This document shows, one piece after another, positions 32,911 through 63,018 of a stretch of DNA of 64,000 nt. The stretch's first letter is position 1; each line of letters begins with the position of its first letter. Source of the stretch: Candidatus Poribacteria bacterium (GTDB lineage Bacteria > Poribacteria > WGA-4E > PCPOR2b); contig JAJEAL010000013.1 of assembly GCA_022822785.1 (NCBI GenBank), forward strand, positions 9,118 to 73,117, in the 5' to 3' direction. Made by a program: the position numbers and the translations under genes. The notes beneath the pieces were generated by a model that saw only the letters and a program-made list of their open reading frames with translations, was not told where the DNA came from and did no database searches.

Positions 32911-34368
32911 CTAACCCATCAGTTTTCCGAGAGAAGCTCTAGATAGTTCATATAAGGGATTCCAATAGATTCCGAGCAGAAGCGTTGGAACCACAAAAAC
33001 AAGGAGCAGGACAAGACTGCCGGTGGAAAAAGAGAGAGATTCGGTATCATCAGCAGTTTCAAGGAACATCGCTTTGACGATTCGCACATAATAGTAAAGC
33101 GCGACAACACTGTTGAGCAAGCCGATGATCGCTAACCAATAGAGTTGTTCTTTGATGACAGCAGCAAAAAGAATCCATTTCCCCGCAAACCCGGCAAGGG
33201 GCGGCAGCCCGGTCAAAGAGAAGAGGAAGATTGCCATTGACACCGCGATGAGCGGGGCACGCGAAACTAGTCCGCGGTAACCGTCAATCGTTTCACTGCC
33301 AACCTCATTCGCAATAAGGATAACGACAAAGAACGCCCCCAAATTCATAAATAGATAAATGATTAGGTAAATCAGGATCGCTTGAAGCCCTTCACTTGTC
33401 AGTAAAACGCCACCCATGAGCAGGAAACCACCGTGCGAAATACTTGAGTAAGCAAGGAGGCGTTTGACATTTTGTTGCGGAAGTGCGGCAAGGTTGCCGA
33501 CGGTCATGGTTAAAGCGGAGACAACCGCGAGCATCAATGACCAGTCAACCGAAGCATCTGCGGATTGCAAGCCAGAATAGAAGAGACGAATGAACAGAGC
33601 AAAACCGGCGGCTTTGGATGCGACAGATAGAAATGCTGTGATTGGGATCGGGGCACCTTCGTAGACGTCGGGAGACCACATGTGGAAGGGCACGGAAGCG
33701 ATTTTGTAGCCGACACCGGCAAGGATAAAGGTGATTGAGAGCAGAACAGCCAACGGATAAACGTTACCTTGACTGAACATCTCTCCGAGTCGGCTGCTAA
33801 TTAGCATAATATCCCCTGTACCAGTCATACCAAAGAGGAGAGAGATACCAAAAAGCATGGTTCCCGACGATACCGCCCCAAAAGTAATATACTTGAATGC
33901 GGCTTCGCTTGAGCGTGGGCTATGGGTCAAGAAACCGGCGAGGATGTAGGAGGTAAGACTGACCGTTTCGAGCGACAGGTAAATCATCAGGAGATGGGTT
34001 GACGATGCCATCAGATACATGCCCAGCGTGACCGCAAGCAGCAGCGCATAGTATTCGCCCTTCGTTGCTGGATCAAGTTCGACAGAACGGATGGAAAATA
34101 GAACTGTTGCAGCAGTAGCGACTGAGATAATAACTTTGAAGAACAGGGCAAAACTATCAAGTCGAACCATGCCGAGGAAAAGGGATCGGTCTTCGGATCC
34201 GATTACAATTGCCGCGATGACAGCTACCACAAGTCCGATCAGCGCTAGATAGGCGGCCCCCTCGCCGCCTCGTTTTTTAGACGCCAAGTCAAATAAGATA
34301 ACGACTACCGCAAAGACAACTAAAACGATTTCTGGTATAAAGTAAGGAATACTTGCAATATTTGGCAA
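32911..34368 (-). CDS. nuoN: Complex I subunit N
   Basis: SSEAAFKY, KIASVPFHMWSPDVYEGAP, KRLLAYSSISH, GLPPLAGF. Confidence 0.95.
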   Translation of the reverse strand: MPNIASIPYFIPEIVLVVFAVVVILFDLASKKRGGEGAAYLALIGLVVAVIAAIVIGSEDRSLFLGMVRLDSFALFFKVIISVATAATVLFSIRSVELDPATKGEYYALLLAVTLGMYLMASSTHLLMIYLSLETVSLTSYILAGFLTHSPRSSEAAFKYITFGAVSSGTMLFGISLLFGMTGTGDIMLISSRLGEMFSQGNVYPLAVLLSITFILAGVGYKIASVPFHMWSPDVYEGAPIPITAFLSVASKAAGFALFIRLFYSGLQSADASVDWSLMLAVVSALTMTVGNLAALPQQNVKRLLAYSSISHGGFLLMGGVLLTSEGLQAILIYLIIYLFMNLGAFFVVILIANEVGSETIDGYRGLVSRAPLIAVSMAIFLFSLTGLPPLAGFAGKWILFAAVIKEQLYWLAIIGLLNSVVALYYYVRIVKAMFLETADDTESLSFSTGSLVLLLVFVVPTLLLGIYWNPLYELSRASLGKLMG

Positions 34369-34380
34369 CGGAATCTCCTC

Positions 34381-35883
34381 TTATTGTACAAGCGGCAGTA
34401 TGCTCACAGCTTCTCTAAACATATCAATGGCGATTGAGGGCCAAATGCCAAGCACAATCGTAAGGATACCCAAGGGCACCAACGTTGCAATTTCACGCCC
34501 ATTGATTTCGGCGATATCTTCATACTTCGGGTTCAACTCTCCCAGAAAAACACGCTGTAACGTCCAGAGGAAATACGCGGCACCGACCACGATACCAGCG
34601 GTTGAGAGGATTGTTAGCATCTTGAATTTACTGTATGCACCTAGCAGAGATAACGCTTCGCCGACAAAACCGCTGAGGCCCGGCAATCCCAAGGAGGCCA
34701 TAAACGCCAGCGTTGTTATGCCGGTGTATATCGGCATTTTGCTGCCGAGTCCACCGAAACCGTTGATTTCACGGTGGTGTGCTCGGTCATACACGACACC
34801 CACCAGGAGGAATAGCATTGCGCTAATCACGCCGTGGTTAAACATCTGAAGGATAGCGCCGGTAAGTCCGCTCTCATTCCGCGCTGCAAGTCCTATCAGG
34901 ACAAATCCCATGTGACCGATACTAGAGTAGGCAACGAGTTTCTTGAAATCGGTCTGTGCCAACGCACAGAGCGACCCGTAAACGATGTTAATGAAGCCGA
35001 GGATTGCCAACGAGTTGCCCCACGTACCTTCACCATTGCAGAAGAAGTCCATCCCTGCCGGCAGCATCGCAAAATTCACACGCACGAGTCCATAAGTACC
35101 CATCTTCAAAAGGATACCCGCAAGGATAACGCTGATGGCGGTTGGCGCTTCAACATGAGCATCAGGCAACCACGTGTGGAAGGGGAAAATTGGAACTTTA
35201 ACGGCAAAACCAATGAAGAAACCGAGAAACGCCCAAATCTGGAATGTTGGGTCTGCTAGTGCGTGCCCCGGGGTTTTTGCAAGTTCAATCAACGTGGGAA
35301 TATCAAAGGTGCGAGCCACATCATCCGTACCGCTTTTGAGATAAACAGCAATCATGGCGATAAGCATCAGCACACTGCCGAAAAGTGTATACAGGAAAAA
35401 CTTAATTGCTGCATATTCACGTCTCGGACCGCCCCATATCCCGATTAGGAAGTACATCGGAAGCAGTGTGAGCTCAAAGAAAACATAGAATAAAAACATA
35501 TCTAGCGCACAGAAGAATCCGATCATGCCAGTTTCCAAGAGCAGGAAAAGCGCGAGGTACGCTTTAATCCCTTTCTCAATCTTCCACGATGCGAGGACGC
35601 ATATTGGACCTAACAGTGCGGTTAAAAGCACCAGCGTAACGCTCAGTCCATCAATCCCAACGTGGTAGCGGATATTGAACGCTTCAATCCACATCATGTT
35701 CTCTTCAAACTGATGACCCGACGCAGATCGATCATAGGTGATAAAAAGAAAAACTGCAATCAGCAGCGGGATTAGCGTGACGATAAACGTAACACGCTTA
35801 GCGAGTTCCTCCTGTTCTCGCCGAATAGCAAACAAAACCACAAGCATCCCTAGCAGGGGGATAAAAATCATCAACGATAACAT
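34381..35883 (-). CDS. nuoM: Complex I subunit M
   Basis: YHVGIDGLS, FFELTLLPM, FPFHTWLPDAHVEAP, KLVAYSSIGH, GLPGLSGF. Confidence 0.95.
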   Translation of the reverse strand: MLSLMIFIPLLGMLVVLFAIRREQEELAKRVTFIVTLIPLLIAVFLFITYDRSASGHQFEENMMWIEAFNIRYHVGIDGLSVTLVLLTALLGPICVLASWKIEKGIKAYLALFLLLETGMIGFFCALDMFLFYVFFELTLLPMYFLIGIWGGPRREYAAIKFFLYTLFGSVLMLIAMIAVYLKSGTDDVARTFDIPTLIELAKTPGHALADPTFQIWAFLGFFIGFAVKVPIFPFHTWLPDAHVEAPTAISVILAGILLKMGTYGLVRVNFAMLPAGMDFFCNGEGTWGNSLAILGFINIVYGSLCALAQTDFKKLVAYSSIGHMGFVLIGLAARNESGLTGAILQMFNHGVISAMLFLLVGVVYDRAHHREINGFGGLGSKMPIYTGITTLAFMASLGLPGLSGFVGEALSLLGAYSKFKMLTILSTAGIVVGAAYFLWTLQRVFLGELNPKYEDIAEINGREIATLVPLGILTIVLGIWPSIAIDMFREAVSILPLVQ

Positions 35884-36051
35884 CCAGTGAAATCCTCCTA
35901 AAAAGTTGGTTCAAGGTTTATTTAGTCAACGCCTCTATTCCTAAACTGATCAATGCGTTAGTTCGACCGGTCACCCTTAACTCTAACTCACATTCTTCAC
36001 TTCTTTTCCCACAGAAACTCAAAGACCGTTCATTATCCCCTCTCAGGCGAT

Positions 36052-38268
36052 CTAGAACAAGGCACGGAAAATTAGAATTAGTAGCACGACACCACCCACA
36101 ACGGCTAGCAAGTAATTTTGAATCATCCCCGTCTGAACTCGCCTAATCCGGCCACCGACTGCCCATGTAATTTTGGCAACCCAATTGACCAGCCCATCGA
36201 CAAAGGTGTTATCGAACCACCCTGCGATTCGGGAGCACCCAGCCTGCACAACGACACCGACCCCGTTGACGATTCCATCAATGAAACGCAAATCAAAGAG
36301 TCCAAGCACTTTTGAGCCTGCGACAGTAAGGGCGACAAGCACACCGTCGTACAATTCATCAAAATAGTATTTGTTCCAAAGCAGCGTATAAATCGGTCGC
36401 AGGCGTGCTGCAACAGCGTCGGCAGAAAACCTTTTCCAGTAATAGAAAAGCGCGGATAACCCGATACCGATAATGACGATAACAAACGATAGCGGCACTA
36501 CAATGTTATGCGCTTTATCGTGGTCCGAATCGTGGTGCGCTGCGGCATCGTCATGGTGTACATCTTCGGCGGCAGCCTGTGCATCCGAAATCCCTAGTTG
36601 TGCCTGCAGGGCCCCCTGACCCGACTCGTACATTGCATGTTTTGGCAAATGGATGTGGGGCTGTTCTGGTTGCTTCACATATTTTTCAAACGACCATTTG
36701 TTGACTATTGGAAAACTGAGCACCGCTAGAATAATCAGCGGAATTGCCATCTTTAAGGGCGATTCGTGTGCACCATCGTACATTTCTTGATTACGGGGTT
36801 CGCCCATAAAGGTCATAAAGATGAGACGGAACATATAAAACGCGGTGATAACCGCTGCGAGTGCCGCCATGCCAAACAGAATGTAGTGATGCACGGAACC
36901 CCAAGATATTGCCCTGTATAGTACTTCAACGAGGATGGCATCTTTGCTCCAAAATCCTGAAAAGATATAGGGCACACCAGCGATTGATAGCGTTGCAATC
37001 AGCATCGTCACAAAGGTAATAGGCATCTTATGTCTGAGCCCTCCCATGTGGCGCATATCCTGTGCGGGATCAATGCCGAAGCTATCGAATGCGGCGGCAT
37101 GTGTGTCAGTATCTTCGCGATCGGCATCGTGGGCGTGATCATGGTCGTGGTCATGAGCGTGATGAGCGGCATGGAAAGCGTGGATCACGCTACCGGATCC
37201 GAGGAACAGTAGGGCTTTAAAAAATGCGTGTGTCGTGAGGTGAAAAAGCCCTGCGATGTAGCTTCCTGCTCCAATCGCCAACATCATAAAGCCAAGTTGG
37301 CTGATGGTCGAATAGGCGAGTACCCGTTTAATATCAAATCGCACAATGGCGATCGTTGCTGCGACAAGTGCCGTGATACCTCCAACATACGCAATGACCA
37401 AAGATGAATCTGCGGTAAGGATTGGAAACATCCGTGCGGTAAGGTAAACCCCTGCAGCAACCATCGTCGCGGCGTGAATCAAGGCGCTGACAGGTGTGGG
37501 ACCTTCCATCGCATCAGGTAGCCATGTATGCAAGGGGATTTGTGCGGATTTACCGACGGCACCGCAGAAAATCAGCACACCGGCGACCGACAACCATGTC
37601 ATGTCCCCGGCAGTTAAATTACTAGCAAGCGCAAAAATACCCTCATCGCCGTATAGCGATAGGGTGCGGAATTTAGTAAAAAGCATCATCATGCCGATAA
37701 ACATTCCGACATCCCCGACGCGGGTGGTCATGAACGCTTTTTTACACGCGTTCGCCGGCGCATCTTCTTCAAACCAGAACCCAATCAGCAGATACGAGCA
37801 CACCCCGACAAGCTCCCAACCGATATAGATACCGAGTAGATTATCGGACACGACTAAAAAAAGCATGGAAAAGGAGAACAAAGACAGGAAGGCAAAGAAA
37901 CGAGGGTAGCGTGGATCACCGTGCATGTACCCGATTGAAAAAATATGCACAAGGCTACTGACAATCGTGACGACAAGAAGCATGACGGCGGTCACACTGT
38001 CAAAGAGGAAACCCATTGAGAAATTGACCGATCCTAGTGGCAGCCACGTGAGCGAGTGTATCTCTGCACCATCGTGCGAAAGTTTATCCGGTTCGGCGAC
38101 AACGTTTGTAAATAGCAGGACAGCACACACAAACGCTATGAGCATCGCTACAGTCGAAACGAGGTCCTGGCGGGAATAATTACGTCCCGTCAACGAGAGA
38201 AGTGCGAAAAACGCAAACGCGGCAAGGGGAGCGAGCAAAATGATACTGATGAGAGGAACGATGGGCAT
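36052..38268 (-). CDS. nuoL: Complex I subunit L with His-rich insertions
   Basis: YMHGDPRYPRFF, GKSAQIPLHTWLPDAMEGPTPVSALIHAATMV, HAFFKALLFLGSG; ATG 38268 after a GGAG RBS. Confidence 0.95.
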   Translation of the reverse strand: MPIVPLISIILLAPLAAFAFFALLSLTGRNYSRQDLVSTVAMLIAFVCAVLLFTNVVAEPDKLSHDGAEIHSLTWLPLGSVNFSMGFLFDSVTAVMLLVVTIVSSLVHIFSIGYMHGDPRYPRFFAFLSLFSFSMLFLVVSDNLLGIYIGWELVGVCSYLLIGFWFEEDAPANACKKAFMTTRVGDVGMFIGMMMLFTKFRTLSLYGDEGIFALASNLTAGDMTWLSVAGVLIFCGAVGKSAQIPLHTWLPDAMEGPTPVSALIHAATMVAAGVYLTARMFPILTADSSLVIAYVGGITALVAATIAIVRFDIKRVLAYSTISQLGFMMLAIGAGSYIAGLFHLTTHAFFKALLFLGSGSVIHAFHAAHHAHDHDHDHAHDADREDTDTHAAAFDSFGIDPAQDMRHMGGLRHKMPITFVTMLIATLSIAGVPYIFSGFWSKDAILVEVLYRAISWGSVHHYILFGMAALAAVITAFYMFRLIFMTFMGEPRNQEMYDGAHESPLKMAIPLIILAVLSFPIVNKWSFEKYVKQPEQPHIHLPKHAMYESGQGALQAQLGISDAQAAAEDVHHDDAAAHHDSDHDKAHNIVVPLSFVIVIIGIGLSALFYYWKRFSADAVAARLRPIYTLLWNKYYFDELYDGVLVALTVAGSKVLGLFDLRFIDGIVNGVGVVVQAGCSRIAGWFDNTFVDGLVNWVAKITWAVGGRIRRVQTGMIQNYLLAVVGGVVLLILIFRALF

Positions 38269-38345
38269 ATGAGGGTCTCCTAAAACAGTCATTCAAGAGT
38301 TCAGGCGGAGAGATAAATTCCTTCTACAATATAGTCAGATCTTTT

Positions 38346-38654
38346 TTATCCCTTCAAAGTATCGGTCTCGTCAGGGCTGATGGTACTGAACTCTCTATAA
38401 ATTGCCAGAATAATAGCTAAAAAGACAGCGGCTTCGGCGGCAGCGAGGACAATTCCAAAAAGTGCGATAATTTGGCCACTAATATCGTCAGGGGGTGTTA
38501 CGAACCGAGAAAAAGCAGCGAAGTTGAGGTTACAGGAATTGAGAATCAATTCGATTCCCATCAGGATGCTGATAGCATTCCGGCGTGTCAACACACAGAA
38601 AATTCCGAGACAGAAAAGTATAATACTGATAACAAGATAACTTTGTAGACTCAC
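38346..38654 (-). CDS. nuoK: Complex I subunit K
   Basis: RRN...LMGIELILN, AAAEAAVFLAI. Confidence 0.93.
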   Translation of the reverse strand: MSLQSYLVISIILFCLGIFCVLTRRNAISILMGIELILNSCNLNFAAFSRFVTPPDDISGQIIALFGIVLAAAEAAVFLAIILAIYREFSTISPDETDTLKG

Positions 38655-39181
38655 TCGTCCCTGACCTCCTTACGGGAAATAAGTGCCGCGCCAATCAGGG
38701 CAACCAATAGCAGAATTGACGCGATTTCAAATGGGAGCAAGAACTCCTCTTTCATAATCATCTCGCCAATTTTGTGCGTTGTGGGTTCCTGCGATGCTCC
38801 TACGTCCACGTTGTCCCATTGTGGTGTGTTCGTAATGACACTCAAAAGCAAGCCAAAAATAATTAGCGATACAACACCGCCCCAGAAAAGTTGTCCACGT
38901 TCAAGTTTTAGCTTTAGGTCCAAGCTGCCACTTGTCATCATAACTCCAAATAGGATTAGCACTAGGATACCACCGACATAGACTATCACTTGGGTGGCAG
39001 CAAGGAAATCGGCTTGCAAGAAAACATAAAGCCCTGCAACGCTAAACAGCGTAACCATGAGGGCAAAGGCAGCGTAGACGATATTTCTTATCGTTACGAC
39101 AACAACCGCCGATCCGATCGTCAGCAGAGCAAAAAGGTAGAAAACCAATTGTTGAGGATTCAGTTCCATAAGTTGACTCAA
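38651..39181 (-). CDS. nuoJ: Complex I subunit J (start 39181 or 39169)
   Basis: ADFLAATQVIVYVGGILVLILF, LPFEIASILLLVALIGA. Confidence 0.93.
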   Translation of the reverse strand: MSQLMELNPQQLVFYLFALLTIGSAVVVVTIRNIVYAAFALMVTLFSVAGLYVFLQADFLAATQVIVYVGGILVLILFGVMMTSGSLDLKLKLERGQLFWGGVVSLIIFGLLLSVITNTPQWDNVDVGASQEPTTHKIGEMIMKEEFLLPFEIASILLLVALIGAALISRKEVRDE

Positions 39182-39214
39182 TTACTCAATTTCGGGTGTG
39201 AGATTTTATTCAGA

Positions 39215-39886
39215 TTAGTCTGCGGCTTCAGCCTCAGTGGATTCATCAGCCGGCTGGTCATACATTTCTGGTTCTGCAAATTCGTAAATCAGATCTGTCC
39301 GATCGAAGGTTGAGTATTCAATCCCGTCACTAAGATTATCGAACATAATCAGACACTCTGTCGGACAAACTTCGGTACAAAGTCCGCAGTACATACAGAG
39401 CGACATATCGATATCAAACTGATCGAGATAGAAAATCACCGGTTTTCGTTCGACGATGCTAGCGATTTCATCGCTTGAAACCGTGATAGTTCTATCGTCG
39501 CGGGTATTAATTGTAACAGTCGTATTAGGTGCTGGCTTTTCATCTCCTTCAATATTGCCGACGATTTCCGTTCTATCTTTGAGATGAACCACGTTCATAC
39601 TATCCCAGAGCCGCTCGCCTCTGGGCAGTTTTTGGGTGACAATAGTAATACAATCGACAGGACAGATCATCTCGCATTTCTTACAACCGATACAGTCCTC
39701 AATGCGGTTATGTAACTTCCCACGATAGCCTTTGGGAATTTCGCGCACATTTTTCTTCTGCTCAAAGGAGCGGTCATACGGATATTGGTGGGTGACCGAG
39801 GGTTGCAAGAACTGTTTGAAAGTGATACGCATACCGACGAGGGCTGTATAAACCCCGAAGTAGATATTTGACAGATAGTGGCGCAT
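39215..39886 (-). CDS. nuoI: Complex I subunit I with an internal insertion of about 55 aa
   Basis: TxQYP, CIGCKKCEMICP and CMYCGLCTEVCP ferredoxin motifs. Confidence 0.92.
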   Translation of the reverse strand: MRHYLSNIYFGVYTALVGMRITFKQFLQPSVTHQYPYDRSFEQKKNVREIPKGYRGKLHNRIEDCIGCKKCEMICPVDCITIVTQKLPRGERLWDSMNVVHLKDRTEIVGNIEGDEKPAPNTTVTINTRDDRTITVSSDEIASIVERKPVIFYLDQFDIDMSLCMYCGLCTEVCPTECLIMFDNLSDGIEYSTFDRTDLIYEFAEPEMYDQPADESTEAEAAD

Positions 39887-39930
39887 GGTTAAACCTCCTT
39901 GCGAGGTAAATTGGTGTGCTTTTGGCTTTT

Positions 39931-41214
39931 CTATGTTGTCGCAGAAATCTGCCTATCCGGCGAACTTGGCGGTGTTGTGCTCTTAGATAAACTCCTACCG
40001 AGCACGCCGAATACAAGAATCAGTCCAAGTATAATGGCAGCGATACTAATAATAATGCTTAATCGCGAATCTTGCGGGAAAATCAGTCCCCAAATTCCGA
40101 CGCCGAGAATGTTGAAAAATGAAATCGGAATAAAATACTTCCAACAGAGATTCATCAACTGATCTACCCGCAAACGTGGCAGCGTCCACCGCAGCCACAT
40201 CATGACGAACACCAAGCACAGAGTCTTGATGGCAACTCCCAAAAGTCCGCCGAGGGTAATCGCTCTCAGGACAAAGCCGAGGAGACCGGCTTCGGGTAAC
40301 ATCCCTGAAGGCACAATGCCGTGCCAACCGCCGAGAAATAGCGTTGCAGCGATTGCACTGACCGCAAACATATTGGCATATTCTGCAATGAAGAACAACG
40401 CGAACCGCATGCCACTATATTCGGTATGAAAACCAGCAACCAGCTCGGATTCAGCTTCAGGCAGGTCAAACGGGGTGCGGTTGACTTCAGCAATCGACGA
40501 TATAAAGAAGACGAAGAAAGCAATAAAGGTGAAAGGCGTTCGAAAAATTAACCAGTTAGCTATCCCATCCTGGCCGTTGACGATTTCTTGCATATTCAAG
40601 CTCTGCACCAGCATAACCACAGTCAAAATACCGAGCCCGAGTGGAATTTCATAGCTAACGATTTGGGCAGCCGATCGCATAGCCCCAAGCAGTGACCACT
40701 TGCTATTGGAAGCCCATCCCGCCATAATCACGCCCATCACGATGACGGAAGAGATAGCCATGATGTAAAAGATGCCGATATTTAAGTTACTGACCAGAAT
40801 GGACCGATCGAACGGAATCGCAGCAAATACGGCAAAGGAACAGGCAAAGATAATATATGGAGAGACCACAAATAGGAATTTATCTCCCTCGCGCGGGATA
40901 TGGTCCTCTTTGAAAATGAGCTTAACCCCATCGGCTAAGGTTTGAAGAGTGCCGTGGGGCCCCACCCTCATAGGGCCGACCCGATCTTGAATATGTGCAG
41001 AAACTTTCCGTTCTGCTAAAACAAGTCCGAGCGGGAGGAGGGGGACAACAGCCACGAAAATGACACAACACGCGAGCATAATGGCGAGTTCACCAAGCGG
41101 TGCGGGGAGATGCTCCAAGAATGGAGCGTGATTCTGGACGAACCTTTGTGCCCAATTGTCGGAGGATTGGACAAAAAATTGATGTAAGTTTTCAACTTGT
41201 AGACCGAGTAGCAT
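39931..41214 (-). CDS. nuoH: Complex I subunit H
   Basis: ERKVSAHIQDRVGP, ADGVKLIFKED, NRTPFDLPEAESELVAGFHTEYSG, LPRLRVDQLM. Confidence 0.96.
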   Translation of the reverse strand: MLLGLQVENLHQFFVQSSDNWAQRFVQNHAPFLEHLPAPLGELAIMLACCVIFVAVVPLLPLGLVLAERKVSAHIQDRVGPMRVGPHGTLQTLADGVKLIFKEDHIPREGDKFLFVVSPYIIFACSFAVFAAIPFDRSILVSNLNIGIFYIMAISSVIVMGVIMAGWASNSKWSLLGAMRSAAQIVSYEIPLGLGILTVVMLVQSLNMQEIVNGQDGIANWLIFRTPFTFIAFFVFFISSIAEVNRTPFDLPEAESELVAGFHTEYSGMRFALFFIAEYANMFAVSAIAATLFLGGWHGIVPSGMLPEAGLLGFVLRAITLGGLLGVAIKTLCLVFVMMWLRWTLPRLRVDQLMNLCWKYFIPISFFNILGVGIWGLIFPQDSRLSIIISIAAIILGLILVFGVLGRSLSKSTTPPSSPDRQISATT

Positions 41215-41262
41215 TCAAACTCCTTATCCCTGAAACGTGATGCAGGAAAATAGAAAGAGACT

Positions 41263-42441
41263 CTAGCGATCGACCTCTCCCATAACAATATCAATGCTTC
41301 CGATGATTGCGATAATGTCTGCGACCATTAGGCCTCGACTCAACTCTTGCAAGGCACTTAGCGCTGTAAAGCAGGGGGATTTGGCTTTCACACGCACTGG
41401 CTTCGGTGTGCCATCACTTACGATATAAAAGCCGAGTTCTCCACGGGGTGCTTCGCTTCGGTGGAAGATCTCACCCTTAGGGGGACGTACCGCTTTCAGC
41501 TCCGCTTGGATTGGCCCGTCGGGCAAACCGGACTCAAGAATTTGCCGGATGATTCGGACGGACTCTTTCATCTCATCCATTCGGACTTTATAGCGGTTCC
41601 AACAGTCGCCGGAGACCACACCCAGCTCTGGAATATCTCTTCCAACGGGAACATCAAAGTCAAATCGGTCATAGATGGAGTATGTTTCATCTCTGCGCAG
41701 GTCCCATTGTAGTCCGGCGCCACGGAGGTTGGGGCCCGTAATGCCGTAGTTAATCGCCATTGCTGCGTCCATCACAGCAACATTTGCTGTGCGTTCAATG
41801 AAGATGCGGTTAGCGGTGAGTAGCGAGTTGTACACATCGATCTGCGGCTCGAAATAGTCGATAAATTCCTCAACATCATCCATGAAGCCCGGTGGTGTAT
41901 CCCTTGACACGCCACCGACCCGGATATAATTGTAGGTCAATCGTGCACCACAAATCTTTTCAAAAAGCAGAAGAATCTTCTCACGGTCTCTAAAAGCGTA
42001 AAGGAACGGGGTAAACGCACCGATGTCCATGCCGTAGGTGCCAAAGGACAAAAGATGACTCCCAATTCGATTGAGTTCGCCGATGAGGACACGCAGGTAT
42101 TCCCCCCGTTCAGGGACACCGGGAAATTTTCCTCCGTCCCTTGCCATTAACTCCTCAACCGTGAGGCAGAATCCCCAGTTCATATTCATTGCCGCAATAT
42201 AATCCATCCGGTCGGTAAACGGGATAATCTGTTGATAATTCAGGTTCTCGGAATGCTTTTCAAAGCAGCGGTGCAAGTATCCAATATGGGGGATTGCATC
42301 CCGGACGATTTCCCCATCCAGTTTCAGCTCAAGCCGTAACACGCCATGAGTGCTTGGGTGCTGCGGTCCCATGCTGACAACCATCTCATCCGTAAATGGC
42401 TTCAGTTCAATAAATTTGCTTTCCTGTTGTGGTGCTGCCAT
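41263..42441 (-). CDS. nuoD: Complex I subunit D
   Basis: GPQHPSTHGVLRL, GYLHR, RMDY, EAPRGE, IDIVMGEVDR. Confidence 0.96.
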   Translation of the reverse strand: MAAPQQESKFIELKPFTDEMVVSMGPQHPSTHGVLRLELKLDGEIVRDAIPHIGYLHRCFEKHSENLNYQQIIPFTDRMDYIAAMNMNWGFCLTVEELMARDGGKFPGVPERGEYLRVLIGELNRIGSHLLSFGTYGMDIGAFTPFLYAFRDREKILLLFEKICGARLTYNYIRVGGVSRDTPPGFMDDVEEFIDYFEPQIDVYNSLLTANRIFIERTANVAVMDAAMAINYGITGPNLRGAGLQWDLRRDETYSIYDRFDFDVPVGRDIPELGVVSGDCWNRYKVRMDEMKESVRIIRQILESGLPDGPIQAELKAVRPPKGEIFHRSEAPRGELGFYIVSDGTPKPVRVKAKSPCFTALSALQELSRGLMVADIIAIIGSIDIVMGEVDR

Positions 42442-42482
42442 GATGTTATTTCCTTTAACCTAATCAGATTAACTGATAAAAA

Positions 42483-43232
42483 TTAGCTAGCCTCAAAATT
42501 TTCAGCGTCTGGCCATGTTATATAAAGCTGGTGCACAGTCATCTCAGATTGTTGTCCCTGGCCGTATGGAATGCGGTCCAAATCGCAAGCCATGTATTGA
42601 AGATAACAATCCTTATTGAAAAACTGTTCATCAATCAACCCTTCTTTACTCAACGAAACAAAGAGCGCAGCAGCACGTGCCTGACAATTGAGAGAACGTT
42701 GGGGATTAAAAACTATATCCGAAAATCCTTCAAATGGTTCGAGCTCTTCTTTTGCCAGATTCGGTTTCTTTTGCCATAGCGCAGTCAGATATAACCAGTC
42801 ATAGAAAGCCGTTTGGGGGTCAATAGGAAAATCTTCGCCAAAGAAATTAAAAGCGATTAGTTTTCCTGAATTCCGCAACCGCTCATCGGTTTTCGCCGCT
42901 CGACTCGATACTGAATACAGATCTTGATAGGGCCCACCGTTTTCAAACACCTTGCTTCCTTGATAGGCACATTCCACGCTCACCTTCTGTCCATTTGGCG
43001 TTTTTAAAGGGAGATTAAAAGCACTCAATGAAACACCCAAGACTGAAGTAGATTTTCCTGAGATTTCCAAAATTGGAGCAATACCCTTATCTTCAGCGGC
43101 CCTATGTAGGGAAGCGATAGATTTTTGCAGTCGCGATTTTGCAAAACCAGGATACCATCGAAACTCTATATCGACCTCTTTAACATAAGGAAAATCACTG
43201 AAATTAGGGGTAAAAATAGGGCGTTTTGCCAT
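42483..43232 (-). CDS. DarT-associated NADAR-like antitoxin (DUF6977-like)
   Basis: MAKRPIF, W.PGFAKS..QKSI, LEISGKS, SAFNL, VECAYQGSKVFENGGP, TAFYDWLY, FNPQRSLNCQAR; directly downstream of darT. Confidence 0.75.
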   Translation of the reverse strand: MAKRPIFTPNFSDFPYVKEVDIEFRWYPGFAKSRLQKSIASLHRAAEDKGIAPILEISGKSTSVLGVSLSAFNLPLKTPNGQKVSVECAYQGSKVFENGGPYQDLYSVSSRAAKTDERLRNSGKLIAFNFFGEDFPIDPQTAFYDWLYLTALWQKKPNLAKEELEPFEGFSDIVFNPQRSLNCQARAAALFVSLSKEGLIDEQFFNKDCYLQYMACDLDRIPYGQGQQSEMTVHQLYITWPDAENFEAS

Positions 43233-43243
43233 TCTCTCAACTC

Positions 43244-43963
43244 CTAAAAAGGCATATCATCGTCAACCTCAAGTATATCGTCGTTGTTCAAATTAGCAGA
43301 CTGCCATTTTTTGTAATCACATCTATAGCGGAAATATTCTTGATTGGAGCAGTATCGTCGCCCATCAGAAAACGTTGGAGAATTAGAAGACCACCATCGA
43401 TCAAAAGCAATATTATCCCAAAAATGGACTTCGTTGATATACCGATCAGAAATTGCGTTAAACACTAGAACTTCTGCTTGAGGATTTGTGGGATAACCAC
43501 TGGGTATTTTTAAAGATTGACGGTTGATGGTACGGTAATCTTCTACAAAAACGCCGTTTAACGCATCAGGCTTCTTTCTGTCCTCCAATAAAATATGACG
43601 AACAACATTAGATGATGCGTTTTCTTGACAAAACGCACAATCCAACTCCCATAACACCTTTGCATCCAGAAGCAAAACAACCCACTGAGAATGTTCGATA
43701 CGTGTTCTATAGCTATAGAACATTTTGTAGTTTGGAAAACTGATGCTTAGACAAATTGCATCTTTATGGCCGTCAAATCGATCTGGATCATTAAACAAAA
43801 ACTGCTGTCCGCTTGTTTCCAGATAACTACGGCTCAATAAACCCTTTTGCAGAATACTAGATAGATTGTCGATCCGGGTAAAATGGCAAAGCGTTATTAT
43901 ATCTCGCTCAATACAAATCTGTTGTATTTGGCGTTTCCTCTGGCGTCTCCTCTTTGCGTACAT
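43244..43963 (-). CDS. darT: DarT (DUF4433) ssDNA ADP-ribosyltransferase toxin
   Basis: HFTRIDNL.SIL..GLLSR, ND..R.DG...ICLSISFPNYKMF, ENASS, QAEVLV catalytic Glu. Confidence 0.85.
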   Translation of the reverse strand: MYAKRRRQRKRQIQQICIERDIITLCHFTRIDNLSSILQKGLLSRSYLETSGQQFLFNDPDRFDGHKDAICLSISFPNYKMFYSYRTRIEHSQWVVLLLDAKVLWELDCAFCQENASSNVVRHILLEDRKKPDALNGVFVEDYRTINRQSLKIPSGYPTNPQAEVLVFNAISDRYINEVHFWDNIAFDRWWSSNSPTFSDGRRYCSNQEYFRYRCDYKKWQSANLNNDDILEVDDDMPF

Positions 43964-44069
43964 ACAAGCTCCGCCCTATTGCCACTAGAAATCCAAGAGG
44001 ATTAGGAACAACTATCTTCCTGCATAGTGAGGATTTACCTTTTTAATGAAGTCAATAGAATACTCTGGT

Positions 44070-44321
44070 TCATCTTCCCCGTACCCGTCTTCTAAGCCTT
44101 GAACCAATACATATTTCTTTTCGCGCTTCTTGAATTTCTTCATCAGTCGGTTCAAAACCTTCCCATAGACCACCAAGTTTGACTATATTTTTCTCCGCAC
44201 TAGGTTGATATTCGTCCTTTAAAGCTGTCACAAAATCGACAACCGCAGCTAGTTTTTCTTTGGGCAATTCTTTAATCGTATCAATAATCTGTTGTTGATA
44301 CTGCTCTGACAACGCCATCAT
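44070..44321 (-). CDS. DUF2281/VapB-like small antitoxin with an aberrant C-terminus
   Basis: IIDTIKELP.EKL..VVDFV..L, KLGGLWEG...TDEEIQEARKE; GAGGGG RBS; no PIN gene follows. Confidence 0.6.
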   Translation of the reverse strand: MMALSEQYQQQIIDTIKELPKEKLAAVVDFVTALKDEYQPSAEKNIVKLGGLWEGFEPTDEEIQEARKEICIGSRLRRRVRGR

Positions 44322-44341
44322 TCTGCCCCTCGCTACGTAAA

Positions 44342-44827
44342 TCAATAAGGCACCCGCATCCCGCGATAAAACTCAGGCTCTGTATAATCCTTACGCATCG
44401 GGTAACCTTCCCAATCGTCTGGAAGTAGAATGCGTCGCATATCACTGTGACCATCAAAGATAATCCCATATAGATCGTACGTCTCCCGCTCATGCCAGTT
44501 GGCGGTTCTCCAGATATGCTCAACAGTAGGAACATGGGGTTCTTCTTCTTTGGGTAGAACGATCTTTAGGACTAGTTTATGCCGGTGGGTCATTGAGTAG
44601 AGGTGATACACAACATAAAAATTGGAGTCCTTTGCGCCGAGATCGACACCGCTCAAACACATCAAGAAATCAAAAGCCAGCCCTTCATCGTCGGCAAGGT
44701 ATTGGGCAACATCGGCAATTGACTCAGCGGCAACGACAATAAAGGGATCTCCAATGTCTTCTTCAAACGAGGCAATTGACTCTCCAAATTTATCTTTTAG
44801 TTTTTCGCAAATGTCTTGTGGTGTCAC
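44342..44827 (-). CDS. nuoC: Complex I subunit C
   Basis: FDFLMCLSGVD, VVYHLYS, WHERETYDLYGI.F.GH.DMRRILLP..WEGYPMRKDY. Confidence 0.95.
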   Translation of the reverse strand: MTPQDICEKLKDKFGESIASFEEDIGDPFIVVAAESIADVAQYLADDEGLAFDFLMCLSGVDLGAKDSNFYVVYHLYSMTHRHKLVLKIVLPKEEEPHVPTVEHIWRTANWHERETYDLYGIIFDGHSDMRRILLPDDWEGYPMRKDYTEPEFYRGMRVPY

Positions 44828-44997
44828 GGAAAAGCATCAACGCTGTTGAGCAGATGCCAATAGCGTATCATTCCCCTTTCTCAAAAATTCAGCATTTGAA
44901 CGGTTGGTAAGGAATAGCCATTCGATAATTTCGTAGCATAAGCCTTAAATCTGTCGCGGGTGATTAGTGTCTGCAGCCTTCGGTTAGGACTCCAAGT

Positions 44998-45600
44998 TTA
45001 GCCAGCAGCTTCCTCTTGTTCATCGTGTTCCGCCTGTGCTGCTCTGGCTTCAGCCATTGCTTCCTGATTGTTTTCCAAGTCGGTCTTAGTGAAAAGTTTC
45101 TTCAAGAAAGGCACACTCGTCCGTTTTGCAACGGTCTGTGTTTTAATTTTTTCTTGCAGCTTCATCAAGCCTTCGAGTACAGCTTCCGGACGCGGCGGGC
45201 AACCGGGGACATAGACATCAACGGGAATGATTCGGTCTACGCCTTTCAGGACATGATAACCGTGTTGCCAGTAGGGCCCGCCACTTGTCGCGCAGCTGCC
45301 CATGGAGATGACGTATTTTGGTTCGGGCATCTGTTCATAGAGGCGTTTAATCCGCGTCGCCATTTTCAATGTTACAGTTCCCGAAACAATGATCAGATCC
45401 GACTGACGAGGCGTCGCGCGCGGAACTCCGGCACCAAAGCGGTCTAAGTCGTAATTTGAGGCGGCGGTCGCCATAAATTCAATTGCACAGCAAGCAAGTC
45501 CAAAGGTCATGGGCCATAAAGAAGATGCCCGGGCCCAATTGGCAACGGCATCAATAGAAGTTACGATGATATTCTTGTCTAGTTTTTCCTCAATGATCAT
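44998..45600 (-). CDS. nuoB: Complex I subunit B
   Basis: [34 protein letters not shown]. Confidence 0.96.
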
Positions 45601-45602
45601 TG

Positions 45603-45989
45603 TTAATTTTCCTCCCTGACAGACTGAATCGAGCGAATCCACTGGAGGTCTCCTTTTACCCAGACATAAGCAAGACCGACCAAGAGTATAAAGATGAAAA
45701 CTAGCATTTCGACAAATGCGAGCAGCCCGATTTCACGGAAAACAACCCCCCACGGAAATAGAAAGACAATTTCGACATCAAAGATTAAAAAGATGAGCGC
45801 AATAATATAGAATCGGGCGTTGAATTTAATGCGCGTATCACCAATTGGGTCCTCTCCGCACTCATAGGGCATATACTTTTCGTCGCTGTAGAGTCGGGTT
45901 TGGAGCAGACGAGAGAGGACAAGGTTCAGCGTGACGAATAAACAGCCAACTACCAAGAAGAGTAACACATTCGCAAAATTAAAGAGCAT
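45603..45989 (-). CDS. nuoA: Complex I subunit A
   Basis: [28 protein letters not shown]. Confidence 0.95.
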
Positions 45990-46064
45990 CTGTTCCGCAA
46001 GGCAAATCTTCGCAAATTATAGCTTTCGAGATTAACCAAAAATTCGCCTTGTCCTTTCAAGGGT

Positions 46065-46086
46065 GTTTGTGAAATTTCTCACAAAC
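46065..46086. promoter_or_regulatory. Rex-like operator in the nuo leader
   Basis: TTGTGAA-ATTT-CTCACAA (46067-46084), one mismatch from TTGTGAA-N4-TTCACAA. Confidence 0.65.
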
Positions 46087-46161
46087 TAAGGGCTAAAAAA
46101 AGATCTTAATAAACCGTTGAACCATATCAGTTTGATGAGCACATCTACCTGAAGCATATTT

Positions 46162-46190
46162 ATTATATATCAGATCTATATGATTTGCAA
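46162..46190 (-). promoter_or_regulatory. Sigma70-type promoter of the nuo operon
   Basis: Minus strand TTGCAA-17 bp-TATAAT. Confidence 0.7.
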
Positions 46191-46302
46191 CAAAAAACCT
46201 GACAGCCGGATGGCGGCAAAAGCGTTACCTGCTTCCCGTTTAATCCCCCACCAACAGAGGGTTCAAACACAATCGATGAATCAAGCGGGCAATTCTAAAT
46301 TT

Positions 46303-46332
46303 GATTAGGTCACGGAATTCCGTAACCTAATC
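46303..46332. repeat. 30-bp near-perfect palindrome
   Basis: GATTAGGTCACGGAATTCCGTAACCTAATC, one mismatched pair, no loop. Confidence 0.7.
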
Positions 46333-46573
46333 GAGGATTGATATCCCTTCTACTGTGTAGCGGTTTCTAACCTTTCGCATTAGGTTTAAGAGTATTTGCT
46401 ATGACAGTCAAAGCAGAAACATTTTTTATTGATGAGGAATTTTTGTGAAAGCATAGATTTCCTTTTACAGATCGGTTATAATTTATGGAGAGGAGTTAAG
46501 ATATCATAGATGCCTACACCTACAGCAGAGCGGGGATTGCACGCTCCGTCAGAGAGAATTTAACCGTAGGATA

Positions 46574-46727
46574 CAAGACTTTGAACGAGGCAGACCGATG
46601 GAGATTGATGCAGTATTGACGGACGTTCAGGAGCTAGGACGCTTGATCAAGCAAGGTGGAAACCCCAACGCTTGATGTAGTCCTGCCGCTCGTTCAGCAC
46701 AAGGCGCGCCCTGCGGGAGGCTATTGA
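46574..46727 (+). pseudogene. C-terminal fragment of ketopantoate reductase (PanE/ApbA-like)
   Basis: QDFERGRPMEIDAVLTDVQELGRL, frameshift, VETPTLDVVLPLVQHKARPAGGY*. Confidence 0.7.
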
Positions 46728-46798
46728 TACACTCCCAAGGATAAGGACTTGGGATTTACAACTGAGAAGTCAATTTTTAACATTAGGAGAATATACTT

Positions 46799-48427: not shown

Positions 48428-48430
48428 AAC

Positions 48431-49120: not shown

Positions 49121-49259
49121 AAGATTGAATTTTTATTAATATTATGTTAAGAGTTACCCACGACCAGCAGATGCCTAAACCCCGCCCACCCTTCTGCGTC
49201 TACCTATGCACAGAACGAATTTACAGTAACAGATTGGACGGATAGAGGGGTCGAAAAAC

Positions 49260-51005: not shown

Positions 51006-51053
51006 GATGTGAAGTGTGATGCGTAAATTACGTATGACCAGAGAAAGATACTG

Positions 51054-52277: not shown

Positions 52278-52313
52278 CTATTACCCTGTTATCATCAAGA
52301 TAGGAGGTAAAAT

Positions 52314-52763: not shown

Positions 52764-52779
52764 GACGGATTCGTGCGCC

Positions 52780-55020: not shown

Positions 55021-55043
55021 GGAAGTGGAGCAGAAAGGGAAGG

Positions 55044-56582: not shown

Positions 56583-56594
56583 GTGGAGAAGGTT

Positions 56595-58259: not shown

Positions 58260-58293
58260 GAAAAGACGCTGAGGAACAAAAGAGAGTTGACCA

Positions 58294-62955: not shown

Positions 62956-63018
62956 TACAGCTCTATACGACGTTATTTCGCTGGCTGCTTGGGCTAGGGC
63001 ATAATATCTATTGAAACC

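What the first reader, a model, noticed from the sequence alone, without database searches (positions are those of the whole stretch)
42483..43963. DarT/NADAR-like anti-phage TA module inserted inside the complex I operon
Seen: a DarT gene with the catalytic QAEVLV motif and a NADAR-like partner lie between nuoC and nuoD, co-oriented. Sampled 60-nt lines are about 37-42% GC versus about 60% in a nuoD line. I saw no terminator, integrase or target duplication. Known: DarTG1 pairs a DNA ADP-ribosyltransferase with a NADAR eraser and defends against phage, consuming NAD+. Inference: the module may be transcribed from the nuo promoter under a Rex-like operator, tying an NAD+-using defence toxin to redox state and sheltering it in an essential operon.
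Basis: partly seen in the sequence, partly recalled or inferred. Interest (0 to 1): 0.66.

Follow-up and report, generated by a model that had tools for sequence, protein, structure and literature searches.

The report
DarT1–NADAR toxin pair inside nuo operon
A known DNA-modifying toxin and its antidote enzyme (DarT1–NADAR) sit between two respiratory complex I genes of a sponge symbiont (Poribacteria) and are transcribed with them; that gene junction is a slot where related species carry many different toxin-antitoxin and restriction genes.

Summary
ORF 43244-43963(-) is a DarT1-type ssDNA ADP-ribosyltransferase with every essential residue of E. coli C7 DarT1. ORF 42483-43232(-) is a DarT1-associated NADAR. 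Both lie, co-oriented, between nuoC and nuoD of an 11-gene nuoABCDHIJKLMN operon in a Candidatus Poribacteria genome.

Metatranscriptome contigs from an independent sponge sample run without a break from nuoB through DarT, and from NADAR through nuoD to nuoL. They stop near a sigma-70-like promoter upstream of nuoA. A Rex-type palindrome, unique in the genome and conserved in relatives, lies in the leader, and the genome encodes a Rex homologue.

The site is not specific to DarT. Across 143 Poribacteria genomes the nuoC-nuoD gap ranges from 11 nt to 5.3 kb. It carries VapBC-like, MazEF-like, GmrSD and HNH cargo, plus non-defence cargo, always co-oriented. Five genomes split the operon exactly there.

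The module turns over. DarT is a pseudogene in a sister genus, the module is deleted to a NADAR stub in a congener, and NADAR is cut by an IS in another sponge sample.

Verdict: a new member of a known system, sitting in an intra-operon cargo hotspot. Adaptive redox coupling is unproven.

The parts
46162..46190 (-). Sigma-70-like promoter of the nuo operon (TTGCAA-17 nt-TATAAT, 10 of 12)
   Evidence: Consensus scan. The RNA contig of run X2 ends at 46141, and no RNA contig covers 46142-46501 although a DNA contig of the same sample spans 45846-46278.
46067..46084 (.). Rex-type (TGTGA-N6-TCACA core) palindromic operator candidate in the nuoA leader: TTGTGAGAAATTTCACAA
   Evidence: Sequence. It is the only TTGTGA-N6-TCACAA in the genome. 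The same palindrome lies upstream of the nuo operon in at least 26 of 41 relatives. A Rex homologue (PF06971, 65.6 bits) is at G000:C129. A similar box lies 66 nt before nuoA of the second nuo operon.
45603..45989 (-). nuoA
   Evidence: ORF list; position in the operon.
44998..45642 (-). nuoB
   Evidence: ORF list; tblastn conservation in relatives.
44342..44827 (-). nuoC (left flank of the cargo slot)
   Evidence: Pfam Complex1_30kDa, 159.8 bits.
44070..44318 (-). DUF2281/VapB-like orphan antitoxin ORF (82 aa). Its last ~13 residues are out of frame because of a deletion that removed its PIN toxin partner
   Evidence: Weak Pfam DUF2281 and NCBIfam TA_VapB hits. 83-88% identical full-length copies are followed by a PIN gene in G002, G004, G013, G018 and G064. 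Gene call in L069.
44016..44112 (-). Deletion scar: 3' tail of a second antitoxin gene (...QGLEDGYGEDEPEYSIDFIKKVNPHYAGR) plus the first four codons of a mazF-like toxin gene
   Evidence: blastn and direct alignment with the intact pair in G019 and G059.
43244..43963 (-). DarT1-type ssDNA (guanine) ADP-ribosyltransferase toxin, 239 aa, intact
   Evidence: Pfam PF14487, 68.1 bits. PDB 8BAQ E. coli C7 DarT1, E 1.3e-41. F28, R45, N58, D59, R62, D64, S73, M81, F82, N115 and E164 match F18, R35, N48, D49, R52, D54, S63, M71, F72, N104 and E152.
42483..43232 (-). DarT1-associated NADAR antitoxin (guanine-ADP-ribose hydrolase), 249 aa, intact
   Evidence: Pfam PF22397, 282.4 bits. PDB 8BAT G. lovleyi NADAR, E 2e-58. 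dN/dS 0.15 against the G022 copy.
43007..43013 (.). Target site (7-bp duplication AAGGGAG, NADAR codons 74-76) of a 1045-bp IS present in the strain of sponge sample S2 but absent from the window
   Evidence: RNA (X2) and DNA (X3) contigs of S2 break here, overlap by 7 nt and carry 27-30-nt tails identical to the two ends of the IS at G000:C143:5844-6888. The gene call in the RNA contig gives a 75-aa NADAR stub.
42442..42458 (-). Conserved nuoD ribosome-binding segment (AAGGAAATNCATC before the ATG), kept whatever the cargo
   Evidence: blastn and sequence comparison of filled and empty sites.
41263..42441 (-). nuoD (right flank of the cargo slot)
   Evidence: Pfam Complex1_49kDa, 325.4 bits.
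32911..41214 (-). nuoH, I, J, K, L, M, N: the rest of the 11-gene operon; no nuoEFG
   Evidence: ORF lists. Gene calls with Pfam in L069. NuoF homologues occur only on C88 and C72.

Best explanation
The pair is a bona fide DarT1-NADAR (DarTG1-type) toxin-antitoxin module. By homology, DarT1 uses NAD+ to ADP-ribosylate guanine in single-stranded DNA, and NADAR removes the adduct. In model systems this gives abortive-infection phage defence.

In this Candidatus Poribacteria genome it is a promoter-less, AT-rich cassette of about 1.56 kb (about 42459-44015). It lies in a cargo slot between nuoC and nuoD of the NuoEFG-less nuoABCDHIJKLMN operon. It is transcribed by read-through from the nuoA promoter, whose leader carries a Rex-type operator. 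nuoD-N expression depends on transcription passing through the cargo, which explains why all cargo there is co-oriented and lacks terminators.

The slot is a phylum-wide hotspot. Cargo is gained, stacked, deleted and exchanged, most likely by recombination that uses the highly conserved nuo flanks. The DarT1-NADAR cassette replaced a mazF-like toxin next to older VapBC-like and MazEF-like remnants.

Shown: gene identities, residue conservation, anatomy, RNA continuity, hotspot distribution, decay in relatives. Inferred: enzymatic activities, defence function, the recombination mechanism, Rex control.
For: Identity:
- Pfam DarT 68 bits and NADAR-DarT1 282 bits.
- Best solved relatives are E. 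coli C7 DarT1 (8BAQ, E 1.3e-41) and G. lovleyi NADAR (8BAT, E 2e-58).
- All eleven catalytic and NAD-binding residues named in PMC11543638 are conserved.
- NADAR keeps E87, K94, K114 and D172 at the spacing of E88, K95, K115 and D171.

Transcription:
- RNA contigs of run X2 cover 43007-45319 (nuoB-nuoC-scar-DarT-NADAR 5') and 38000-43013 (NADAR 3'-nuoD...nuoL, one 10.1-kb contig).
- RNA depth is 22-33 here and 1-25 over the neighbouring genes (45000-64000), while DNA depth in the same sample is flat at 2-4.
- RNA ends at 46141, next to the promoter-like site.
- No minus-strand promoter-like site between nuoC's stop and the NADAR start region, and no terminator-like site in the insert.

Hotspot:
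- nuoC-nuoD gaps are 11-106 nt in most of genera g7, g8, g9, g11 and g12.
- Gaps exceed 400 nt in 12 of 20 genus members, are 302-4359 nt in all 10 g10 genomes, and reach 5296 nt in g13.
- Five g15/g17 genomes have the operon broken at exactly this junction.
- Cargo includes PIN, PemK-like, GmrSD, HNH, a trypsin-like protease and a membrane protein. All 8 independent cargo types are on the nuo strand.

Turnover:
- A NADAR 3' stub, 92.5% identical, lies directly before nuoD in G011.
- In G022 a 116-nt duplicate of the nuoC 3' end precedes DarT.
- Cassette dS is 0.52-0.64 against 0.88-1.14 for the flanking nuoC and nuoD in the same genome pair.
- Filled and empty sites are intermingled on a NuoD tree.
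- Cassette GC is in the lowest 0.3% of genome windows.
Against: - The RNA evidence comes from unstranded assembled contigs of one metatranscriptome. It shows continuous coverage, not a single transcript, and cannot exclude a weak internal promoter.
- In that same sample the NADAR gene is interrupted at codon 74-76 by an IS while DarT is unchanged and transcribed. An active toxin without its antitoxin should be harmful, so DarT may be weakly active, poorly translated or compensated. A YbiA-type NADAR exists at C13.
- PADLOC-DB 2.0.0 and NCBIfam do not call the pair: DarT scores 28.5 bits over 28 residues, and 15 bits against a 150-bit cut-off.
- The Rex-type box shares its core with CRP/FNR-type sites and lies about 70 nt downstream of the inferred start, so the regulator is not settled.
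- The lower dS of the cassette could partly reflect its different codon composition.
Confidence: 0.8

Rival explanations
1. Adaptive redox coupling. The module was selected at this site so that a Rex-controlled respiratory promoter ties expression of an NAD+-consuming toxin to the NADH/NAD+ state, and the essential operon shelters it from loss.
For: - Co-transcription with nuo.
- A unique, conserved Rex-type box in the leader and a Rex homologue.
- DarT uses NAD+ (PMC11543638).
- NADAR is under purifying selection (dN/dS 0.15).
Against: - The slot holds many unrelated cargos with no NAD link.
- Six of eight Poribacteria with DarT1-NADAR keep it elsewhere.
- At this site the module is a pseudogene in G022, deleted in G011 and IS-disrupted in sample S2.
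- The host operon lacks the NADH-oxidising NuoEFG module, and a second nuo operon with a NuoF homologue directly downstream of its nuoD exists.
- The Rex-type box is also present in genomes whose slot is empty.
Confidence: 0.1
2. Inert passenger. The cassette is transcribed only because it sits in the operon, and DarT is no longer effectively toxic. It is a selfish addiction module on its way to decay and gives no present defence benefit.
For: - A natural NADAR::IS allele with an unchanged, transcribed DarT in sample S2.
- DarT pseudogene with intact NADAR in G022.
- Deletion stub in G011.
- Neighbouring TA remnants in the same gap.
- DarT dN/dS 0.32-0.37, higher than NADAR.
Against: - Both ORFs are intact in the window.
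- All essential DarT1 residues are conserved.
- Shine-Dalgarno motifs precede both genes.
- NADAR is under purifying selection.
- The relaxed DarT ratio is expected because one of the two compared copies is a pseudogene.
Confidence: 0.2
3. Independent transcription unit. The module has its own promoter, autoregulated like classical type II TA systems, and nuoD-N are driven from a promoter inside or after the cargo. The nuo operon would then be functionally split at this junction.
For: - Five Poribacteria genomes (g15, g17) have nuoABC and nuoD... hundreds of kb apart or on different strands or contigs, so nuoD-N can be expressed without nuoABC upstream.
- A weak promoter-like match (TTGTCA-17-GATTAT, 9 of 12) lies just after the nuoC stop, and another (TTGAGA-16-TATTTT) at the NADAR start.
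Against: - Promoter-like matches in the region are no more frequent than in shuffles (13 against 9.9 +/- 2.9).
- None lies in the 48 nt before DarT.
- Only 12-17 nt before nuoD are conserved across different cargos, enough for a ribosome site and not for a promoter.
- RNA coverage is continuous, at a depth like nuoB and nuoC.
Confidence: 0.12
4. Assembly artefact. The cassette was joined to nuo genes by metagenome misassembly.
For: The genome is a 147-contig MAG.
Against: - The same junctions occur in a 13.7-kb contig of X1, in X4, and in RNA contigs of an independent study.
- The same order occurs in the closed chromosome OZ244587.1.
- There is a remnant in G011.
Confidence: 0.01

Closest known systems
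DarTG1 / DarT1-NADAR toxin-antitoxin system of E. coli C7 and Geobacter lovleyi (Schuller et al. 2023, PMC11543638; phage-defence role described by LeRoux et al. 2022, cited from my own knowledge and from PMC11257639)
   Same: The gene order is toxin then antitoxin, here with an 11-nt spacer. The DarT fold family and all catalytic residues match. The NADAR-DarT1 family partner has its catalytic E, K, K and D at the same spacing. Best PDB matches are 8BAQ and 8BAT.
   Different: - Only about 48% (DarT) and about 55% (NADAR) identical to the solved proteins over the aligned parts.
- No promoter of its own is detectable.
- It is embedded in and co-transcribed with a respiratory operon.
- The host is an uncultured sponge symbiont.
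- Activity, target base and defence are untested.
DarTG2 (DarT2 with macrodomain DarG; Thermus aquaticus, Mycobacterium tuberculosis)
   Same: The same DarT superfamily and the same logic of reversible ssDNA ADP-ribosylation.
   Different: - The partner here is a NADAR, not a macrodomain.
- The NCBIfam DarT (DarT2-type) equivalog scores 15 bits against a 150-bit cut-off.
- DarT1 has S63 in place of the Tyr of the H-Y-E motif.
- A separate DarT2-type gene exists elsewhere in this genome (C54).
Defence and TA hotspots flanked by conserved core genes (defence islands, core-gene-flanked integration hotspots; from my own knowledge)
   Same: Variable cargo of TA and restriction genes lies at one syntenic position between conserved genes. 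Turnover among close species is fast, the composition is AT-rich, and remnants are stacked.
   Different: - The slot is inside an operon, between two subunit genes of one enzyme.
- Every cargo gene is co-oriented and apparently promoter- and terminator-less.
- No integrase, tRNA or att repeats are present.
nqo/nuo clusters of Paracoccus denitrificans and Rhodobacter capsulatus with interspersed unidentified reading frames (from my own knowledge)
   Same: Unrelated ORFs lie between complex I genes, co-oriented and co-transcribed.
   Different: Those URFs are fixed in their lineages and are not recognisable TA or defence genes. Here the content differs between species of one genus.

Membership tests
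DarT1-NADAR (DarTG1) toxin-antitoxin system | Toxin belongs to the DarT ADP-ribosyltransferase family | tested here: met
   PF14487, 68.1 bits against a 22.5-bit cut-off.
DarT1-NADAR (DarTG1) toxin-antitoxin system | Toxin is of the DarT1 rather than the DarT2 subtype | tested here: met
   The only significant PDB match is E. coli C7 DarT1 8BAQ (E 1.3e-41). The DarT2/DarG-containing chain 7OMU scores E 0.84. The NCBIfam DarT2-type equivalog scores 15 against 150 bits. Ser at the S63 position.
DarT1-NADAR (DarTG1) toxin-antitoxin system | Essential catalytic residues E152, N104, M71, R52, D54, and NAD/NAM-binding F18, R35, N48, D49, F72 | tested here: met
   All are conserved: E164, N115, M81, R62, D64, F28, R45, N58, D59, F82.
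DarT1-NADAR (DarTG1) toxin-antitoxin system | Adjacent, co-oriented partner of the DarT1-associated NADAR family | tested here: met
   PF22397, 282.4 bits, profile positions 1-211 of 212. 8BAT, E 2e-58. 11-nt spacer.
DarT1-NADAR (DarTG1) toxin-antitoxin system | NADAR catalytic and essential residues (E88, K95, K115, D171 of E. coli C7 NADAR) | tested here: met
   E87, K94, K114 and D172 lie in the motifs VECAYQGSKVFE, AAKTD and FSDIVFNP, aligned to G. lovleyi NADAR at the same spacing. Numbering is inferred from spacing because the E. coli C7 NADAR sequence was not on hand.
DarT1-NADAR (DarTG1) toxin-antitoxin system | Toxicity of DarT1 relieved by NADAR; guanine-specific ssDNA ADP-ribosylation; phage defence | not testable with these tools
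   Needs expression and biochemistry. The natural NADAR::IS allele with intact DarT is a caution.
Rex regulon (redox-sensing repressor) | Operator of the TTGTGAA-N4-TTCACAA type near the promoter, and a Rex protein in the genome | tested here: inconclusive
   The box matches 13 of 14 consensus positions. It is unique in the genome and conserved upstream of nuo in at least 26 of 41 relatives. A Rex homologue is present, with PF06971 at 65.6 bits and a GxGxxG motif. Binding is untested. The core is shared with CRP/FNR sites, and the box lies about 70 nt downstream of the inferred start.
Integron-like or transposon-borne cassette | attC-like inverted repeats, terminal inverted repeats, target-site duplication, integrase or transposase | tested here: not met
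   No flanking repeats beyond chance-size matches. No integrase or transposase ORF in the gap.

The most novel reading that the evidence does not exclude
The nuoC|nuoD junction of complex I operons may be a general landing pad that crosses phylum boundaries. Promoter-less toxin-antitoxin and restriction cassettes would enter by recombination through the conserved nuo flanks. They would then be expressed by read-through from a redox-controlled (Rex-type) respiratory promoter. Abortive-infection toxins such as the NAD+-consuming DarT1 would in that case be physiologically gated by the cell's NADH/NAD+ state. Earlier notes of this scan report TA cassettes at the same junction in Chloroflexota, Elusimicrobiota, Planctomycetota and others; I did not check those notes here.
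Probability: 0.15. Interest if true: 0.75.

Novelty: new member of a known kind. Interest (0 to 1): 0.5.

Why it matters
The module itself extends a characterised defence and TA family to Poribacteria, uncultured sponge symbionts known to be rich in defence genes.

The context is the more useful result. One junction inside a respiratory operon behaves as a hotspot for TA and restriction genes across a whole phylum. All its cargo is co-oriented and apparently read through, and some lineages break the operon at exactly that point. This gives a concrete system for three questions:
- How does selfish or defensive cargo exploit strongly transcribed core operons?
- How much extra sequence can operon polarity tolerate?
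- Does such embedding couple toxin dosage to metabolism?

The natural antitoxin::IS allele with an intact, transcribed toxin is a ready-made test of how toxic DarT1 is in its native host.

Tried and rejected
- **Mobile-element signatures.** I searched 42300-44500 for attC-like, terminal inverted or direct repeats. Only short chance-size matches turned up.
- **Known RNA elements.** Rfam found no match at E <= 1 in 41000-46600. The nuoA leader does not fold more stably than shuffles (z -1.58), so a leader riboswitch or attenuator is not supported.
- **Defence-system libraries.** PADLOC-DB 2.0.0 matches only 28 residues of DarT and nothing for NADAR. NCBIfam stays below its cut-off. These libraries would miss the system. 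Pfam and PDB settle the identity.
- **Donor of the duplicated nuoC 3' end in G022.** It is closest (89.7%) to G022's own nuoC and 82-88% to the window's genus. This is not decisive for a donor.
- **Other RNA data.** Only run X2 holds the region, so there is no stranded or read-level test.
- **Literature.** No paper in the held library describes TA or defence cargo in nuo operons or DarT in Poribacteria.
- **nuo context elsewhere.** The nearest non-poribacterial NADAR homologues (Marinobacterium, Acinetobacter junii, Hwanghaeella, Limiplasma; 46-54% identity) have no nuo genes within 6 kb.
Full report
**1. What is at the coordinates**

On the minus strand the window carries these genes:
- nuoA (45603-45989), nuoB (44998-45642), nuoC (44342-44827)
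- a gap of 1903 nt
- nuoD (41263-42441), then nuoH, I, J, K, L, M, N down to 32911

Pfam confirms nuoC and nuoD. It assigns the 239-aa ORF 43244-43963 to DarT (PF14487, 68.1 bits). It assigns the 249-aa ORF 42483-43232 to NADAR-DarT1 (PF22397, 282.4 bits, full profile length).

The best solved relatives are E. coli C7 DarT1 (8BAQ, E 1.3e-41) and Geobacter lovleyi NADAR (8BAT, E 2e-58).

Schuller et al. 2023 (PMC11543638) name these residues as essential or NAD-binding in DarT1: E152, N104, M71, R52, D54, F18, R35, N48, D49, S63, F72. All are conserved in the window's protein as E164, N115, M81, R62, D64, F28, R45, N58, D59, S73, F82. NADAR keeps E87, K94, K114 and D172 at the spacing of the E. 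coli C7 residues E88, K95, K115 and D171.

PADLOC-DB 2.0.0 and NCBIfam do not recognise the pair. That reflects the age and scope of those libraries.

- The GC contrast is 40.7% for the cassette, against 49.8% for the genome and 50.6% for nuoD. nuoD is not about 60%.
- nuoC and DarT are not direct neighbours.

**2. Anatomy of the gap**

Right after nuoC comes an 82-aa DUF2281/VapB-like antitoxin ORF (44070-44318). In five relatives the same gene, 83-88% identical, is followed by a 130-aa PIN toxin.

In the window the PIN gene is gone. A deletion joins codon ~76 of the antitoxin, out of frame, to the last 33 codons of a second small antitoxin gene (...QGLEDGYGEDEPEYSIDFIKKVNPHYAGR). That second gene is intact in G019 and G059, where a MazF/PemK-like toxin follows it.

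The window keeps the first four codons of that toxin (ATGCAGGAAGA), and homology then ends. DarT-NADAR starts 48 nt later. On the right, homology with other genomes resumes 17 nt before the nuoD ATG, in the ribosome-binding segment.

The DarT1-NADAR cassette is therefore about 42459-44015. It replaced a mazF-like gene beside older TA remnants.

There are no flanking repeats, no integrase and no terminator-like hairpin on the coding strand. AGGAG and GGAG Shine-Dalgarno motifs precede NADAR and DarT.

**3. Organism and host operon**

The nearest locus outside the genome is in OZ244587.1, 'MAG: Candidatus Poribacteria bacterium', which is G022. The runs that hold the region are sponge metagenomes.

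The host operon has 11 genes and no nuoEFG. NuoF homologues occur only on contig C72 and on C88, where one lies about 1.6 kb downstream of the nuoD of a second nuo operon. The word 'essential' for the host operon is therefore not established.

**4. Transcription and the Rex idea**

Run X2 is a sponge metatranscriptome from a study different from the best DNA holder. It has three relevant contigs:
- 45307-46141
- 43007-45319 (nuoB, nuoC, scar, DarT, NADAR 5')
- 38000-43013 and beyond (NADAR 3', nuoD to nuoL; one contig of 10.1 kb)

RNA depth is 22-33 over the operon and 1-25 over the neighbouring genes. DNA depth in the same sample is flat at 2-4. No RNA contig covers 46142-46501, although a DNA contig does. 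The data therefore behave as RNA.

The RNA ends about 20 nt downstream of the best promoter-like site in the region, TTGCAA-17-TATAAT at 46190-46162.

In the leader lies TTGTGAGAAATTTCACAA (46067-46084). Four results bear on it:
- It is the only TTGTGA-N6-TCACAA in the 5.6-Mb genome.
- The same palindrome is found upstream of the nuo operon in at least 26 of 41 relatives.
- A related box lies 66 nt before nuoA of the second nuo operon.
- A Rex homologue (PF06971, 65.6 bits) is encoded on C129.

Binding, strandedness and the absence of internal starts remain untested. The TGTGA-N6-TCACA core is shared with CRP/FNR sites.

**5. The junction is a hotspot**

I first compared 41 relatives. I then combined NuoC and NuoD coordinates from 176 Poribacteria genomes, of which 143 had both genes. 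The gap distribution is:

| Group | nuoC-nuoD gap |
|---|---|
| Genera g8, g9, g11, g12 | 11-58 nt |
| Genus g7 | mostly 52-106 nt, with outliers of 139, 161 and 810 nt |
| Window's genus (g1) | >400 nt in 12 of 20 genomes |
| Other genera of family f1 | 611, 952, 1946, 3125 nt |
| Genus g10 | 302-4359 nt in all 10 genomes |
| Genus g13 | 129-539 nt, plus one of 5296 nt |
| Genera g15, g17 | 5 genomes with nuoC and nuoD hundreds of kb apart, on opposite strands or on different contigs |

The cargo comes:
- DUF2281-like antitoxin with PIN
- the second antitoxin with a PemK-like toxin (21.4 bits, just under the cut-off)
- GmrSD type IV restriction enzymes, full length in G003, G029 and G152 (two in tandem in G152), and fragments in G012, G022 and G066
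- HNH endonucleases (G022, G106)
- a 140-aa membrane protein
- a secreted trypsin-like protease in g10

All eight independent cargo types lie on the nuo strand. This is what one expects if nuoD-N depend on transcription through the cargo. A NuoD tree shows filled and empty sites intermingled among close species.

**6. History of DarT1-NADAR at the site**

- Eight of 41 relatives have a NADAR-DarT1 gene. Only the window's genome and G022 have it between nuoC and nuoD. The other six carry it elsewhere, with no nuo genes nearby.
- The G022 copy is the closest relative (NADAR 84%, against 60-73% for the others).
- In G022, DarT is a pseudogene with an in-frame stop and a ~19-nt indel after the MFY motif, while NADAR is intact. 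A 116-nt duplicate of the nuoC 3' end, fused to a GmrSD fragment, sits immediately upstream. This is the footprint of a recombination event that involved the nuoC end.
- G011, a congener, keeps only the last 42 codons of NADAR, 92.5% identical, directly before nuoD.
- Between the window and G022, dS is 0.52 (NADAR) and 0.53-0.64 (DarT), against 0.88 (nuoC) and 1.14 (nuoD). dN/dS is 0.15 for NADAR and 0.32-0.37 for DarT.
- The cassette therefore looks younger than the split of the two genera. This favours lateral exchange into the same slot, probably through the conserved flanks, followed by decay in some lineages.

**7. A natural antitoxin knock-out**

In sample S2 both the RNA (X2) and DNA (X3) contigs break at 43007-43013. 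They overlap by 7 nt and carry 27-30-nt tails. The tails are identical to the two ends of a 1045-bp IS present in the window's own genome at C143:5844-6888. That IS has one 333-aa DDE transposase ORF and the terminal inverted repeat AGGAGTTACGCAGTTG.

The repeat family has about 120 termini and 28 short MITE-like pairs in the genome.

The tail length of k-1 and the lack of any contig spanning the intact site in S2 indicate that the IS allele is dominant there. X1 and X4 have the intact site. The RNA contig encodes an unchanged DarT and a 75-aa NADAR stub, which ends before all catalytic residues.

Three readings are possible:
- DarT is tolerated without NADAR in its host.
- Another enzyme compensates. 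A YbiA-type NADAR is at C13.
- A downstream restart yields a working NADAR core.

This is the main caution against assuming a fully active toxin.

**8. Verdict**

The pair is a new member of the known DarT1-NADAR family. Its position is real, and the transcription claim is supported. The position is best explained as one cargo among many in an intra-operon hotspot, not as a redox-coupled adaptation.

Earlier notes of this scan report TA cassettes at nuoC|nuoD in other phyla. I did not test them. If they hold, the hotspot is general.

No paper in the held library describes the phenomenon.

Noticed in passing
window 43007-43013; G000:C143:5844-6888: In sponge sample S2 (runs X2 RNA and X3 DNA) a 1045-bp IS is inserted in the NADAR gene with a 7-bp target duplication. 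The IS has a 333-aa DDE transposase and the inverted repeat AGGAGTTACGCAGTTG. It is co-oriented with the operon. DarT is unchanged and transcribed.
   Followed up: partly
G000 genome-wide, e.g. C8:1008-1190, C28:2733-2915, C132:14326-14508: An abundant MITE-like family of 130-470 bp shares the same terminal inverted repeat as that IS. There are about 120 termini at <=2 mismatches and 28 paired elements, with none for the reversed control pattern.
   Followed up: partly
relatives G070-G072 (genus g15) and G074-G075 (genus g17): nuoC and nuoD lie 0.35-1.2 Mb apart, on opposite strands or on different contigs. The 11-gene operon is broken exactly at the junction that is a cargo hotspot elsewhere.
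   Followed up: no
genus g13, e.g. L073 (G153), L074 (G173), L075 (G149), L083, L084: nuoC-nuoD spacers of 300-540 nt at 38-42% GC. The five fetched hold at most one 48-aa ORF (L073); the other four have none of 45 aa or more. More than 40 species have spacers of this size. They could be decayed cargo or a non-coding element.
   Followed up: no
G000:C54:10628-11194: A second DarT2-type gene (PF14487, 153 bits) in a 449-aa open frame. Similar genes occur in many relatives. Probably a DarTG2 system.
   Followed up: no
L065 (G035:C37), L067 (G038), L068 (G029): Unusual DarT1-NADAR layouts elsewhere in Poribacteria. In G035, NADAR is followed by a 965-aa frame with two DarT domains. In G038 and G029, DarT is followed by two tandem NADAR genes, one of them inside a ~460-aa frame.
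   Followed up: no
window 46047-46062 (-): A terminator-like hairpin plus T-run (CCTTGAAAGGACAAGG CGAATTTTTG) lies in the nuoA leader just downstream of the Rex-type box. RNA reads through it, there is no Rfam match, and the leader fold is not significant.
   Followed up: yes
window 36052-38292 (-), NuoL: NuoL (746 aa) carries two His/Asp-rich low-complexity inserts: HAAHHAHDHDHDHAHDADREDTDTH and VHHDDAAAHHDSDHDKAHN.
   Followed up: no
G000:C88:56968-56985 and 57034 onward: A second nuo operon (nuoA, B, C, D, with a NuoF homologue about 1.6 kb downstream of its nuoD) is preceded by its own Rex-type box, ATGTGAAACATTTCACAA, 66 nt before nuoA.
   Followed up: partly
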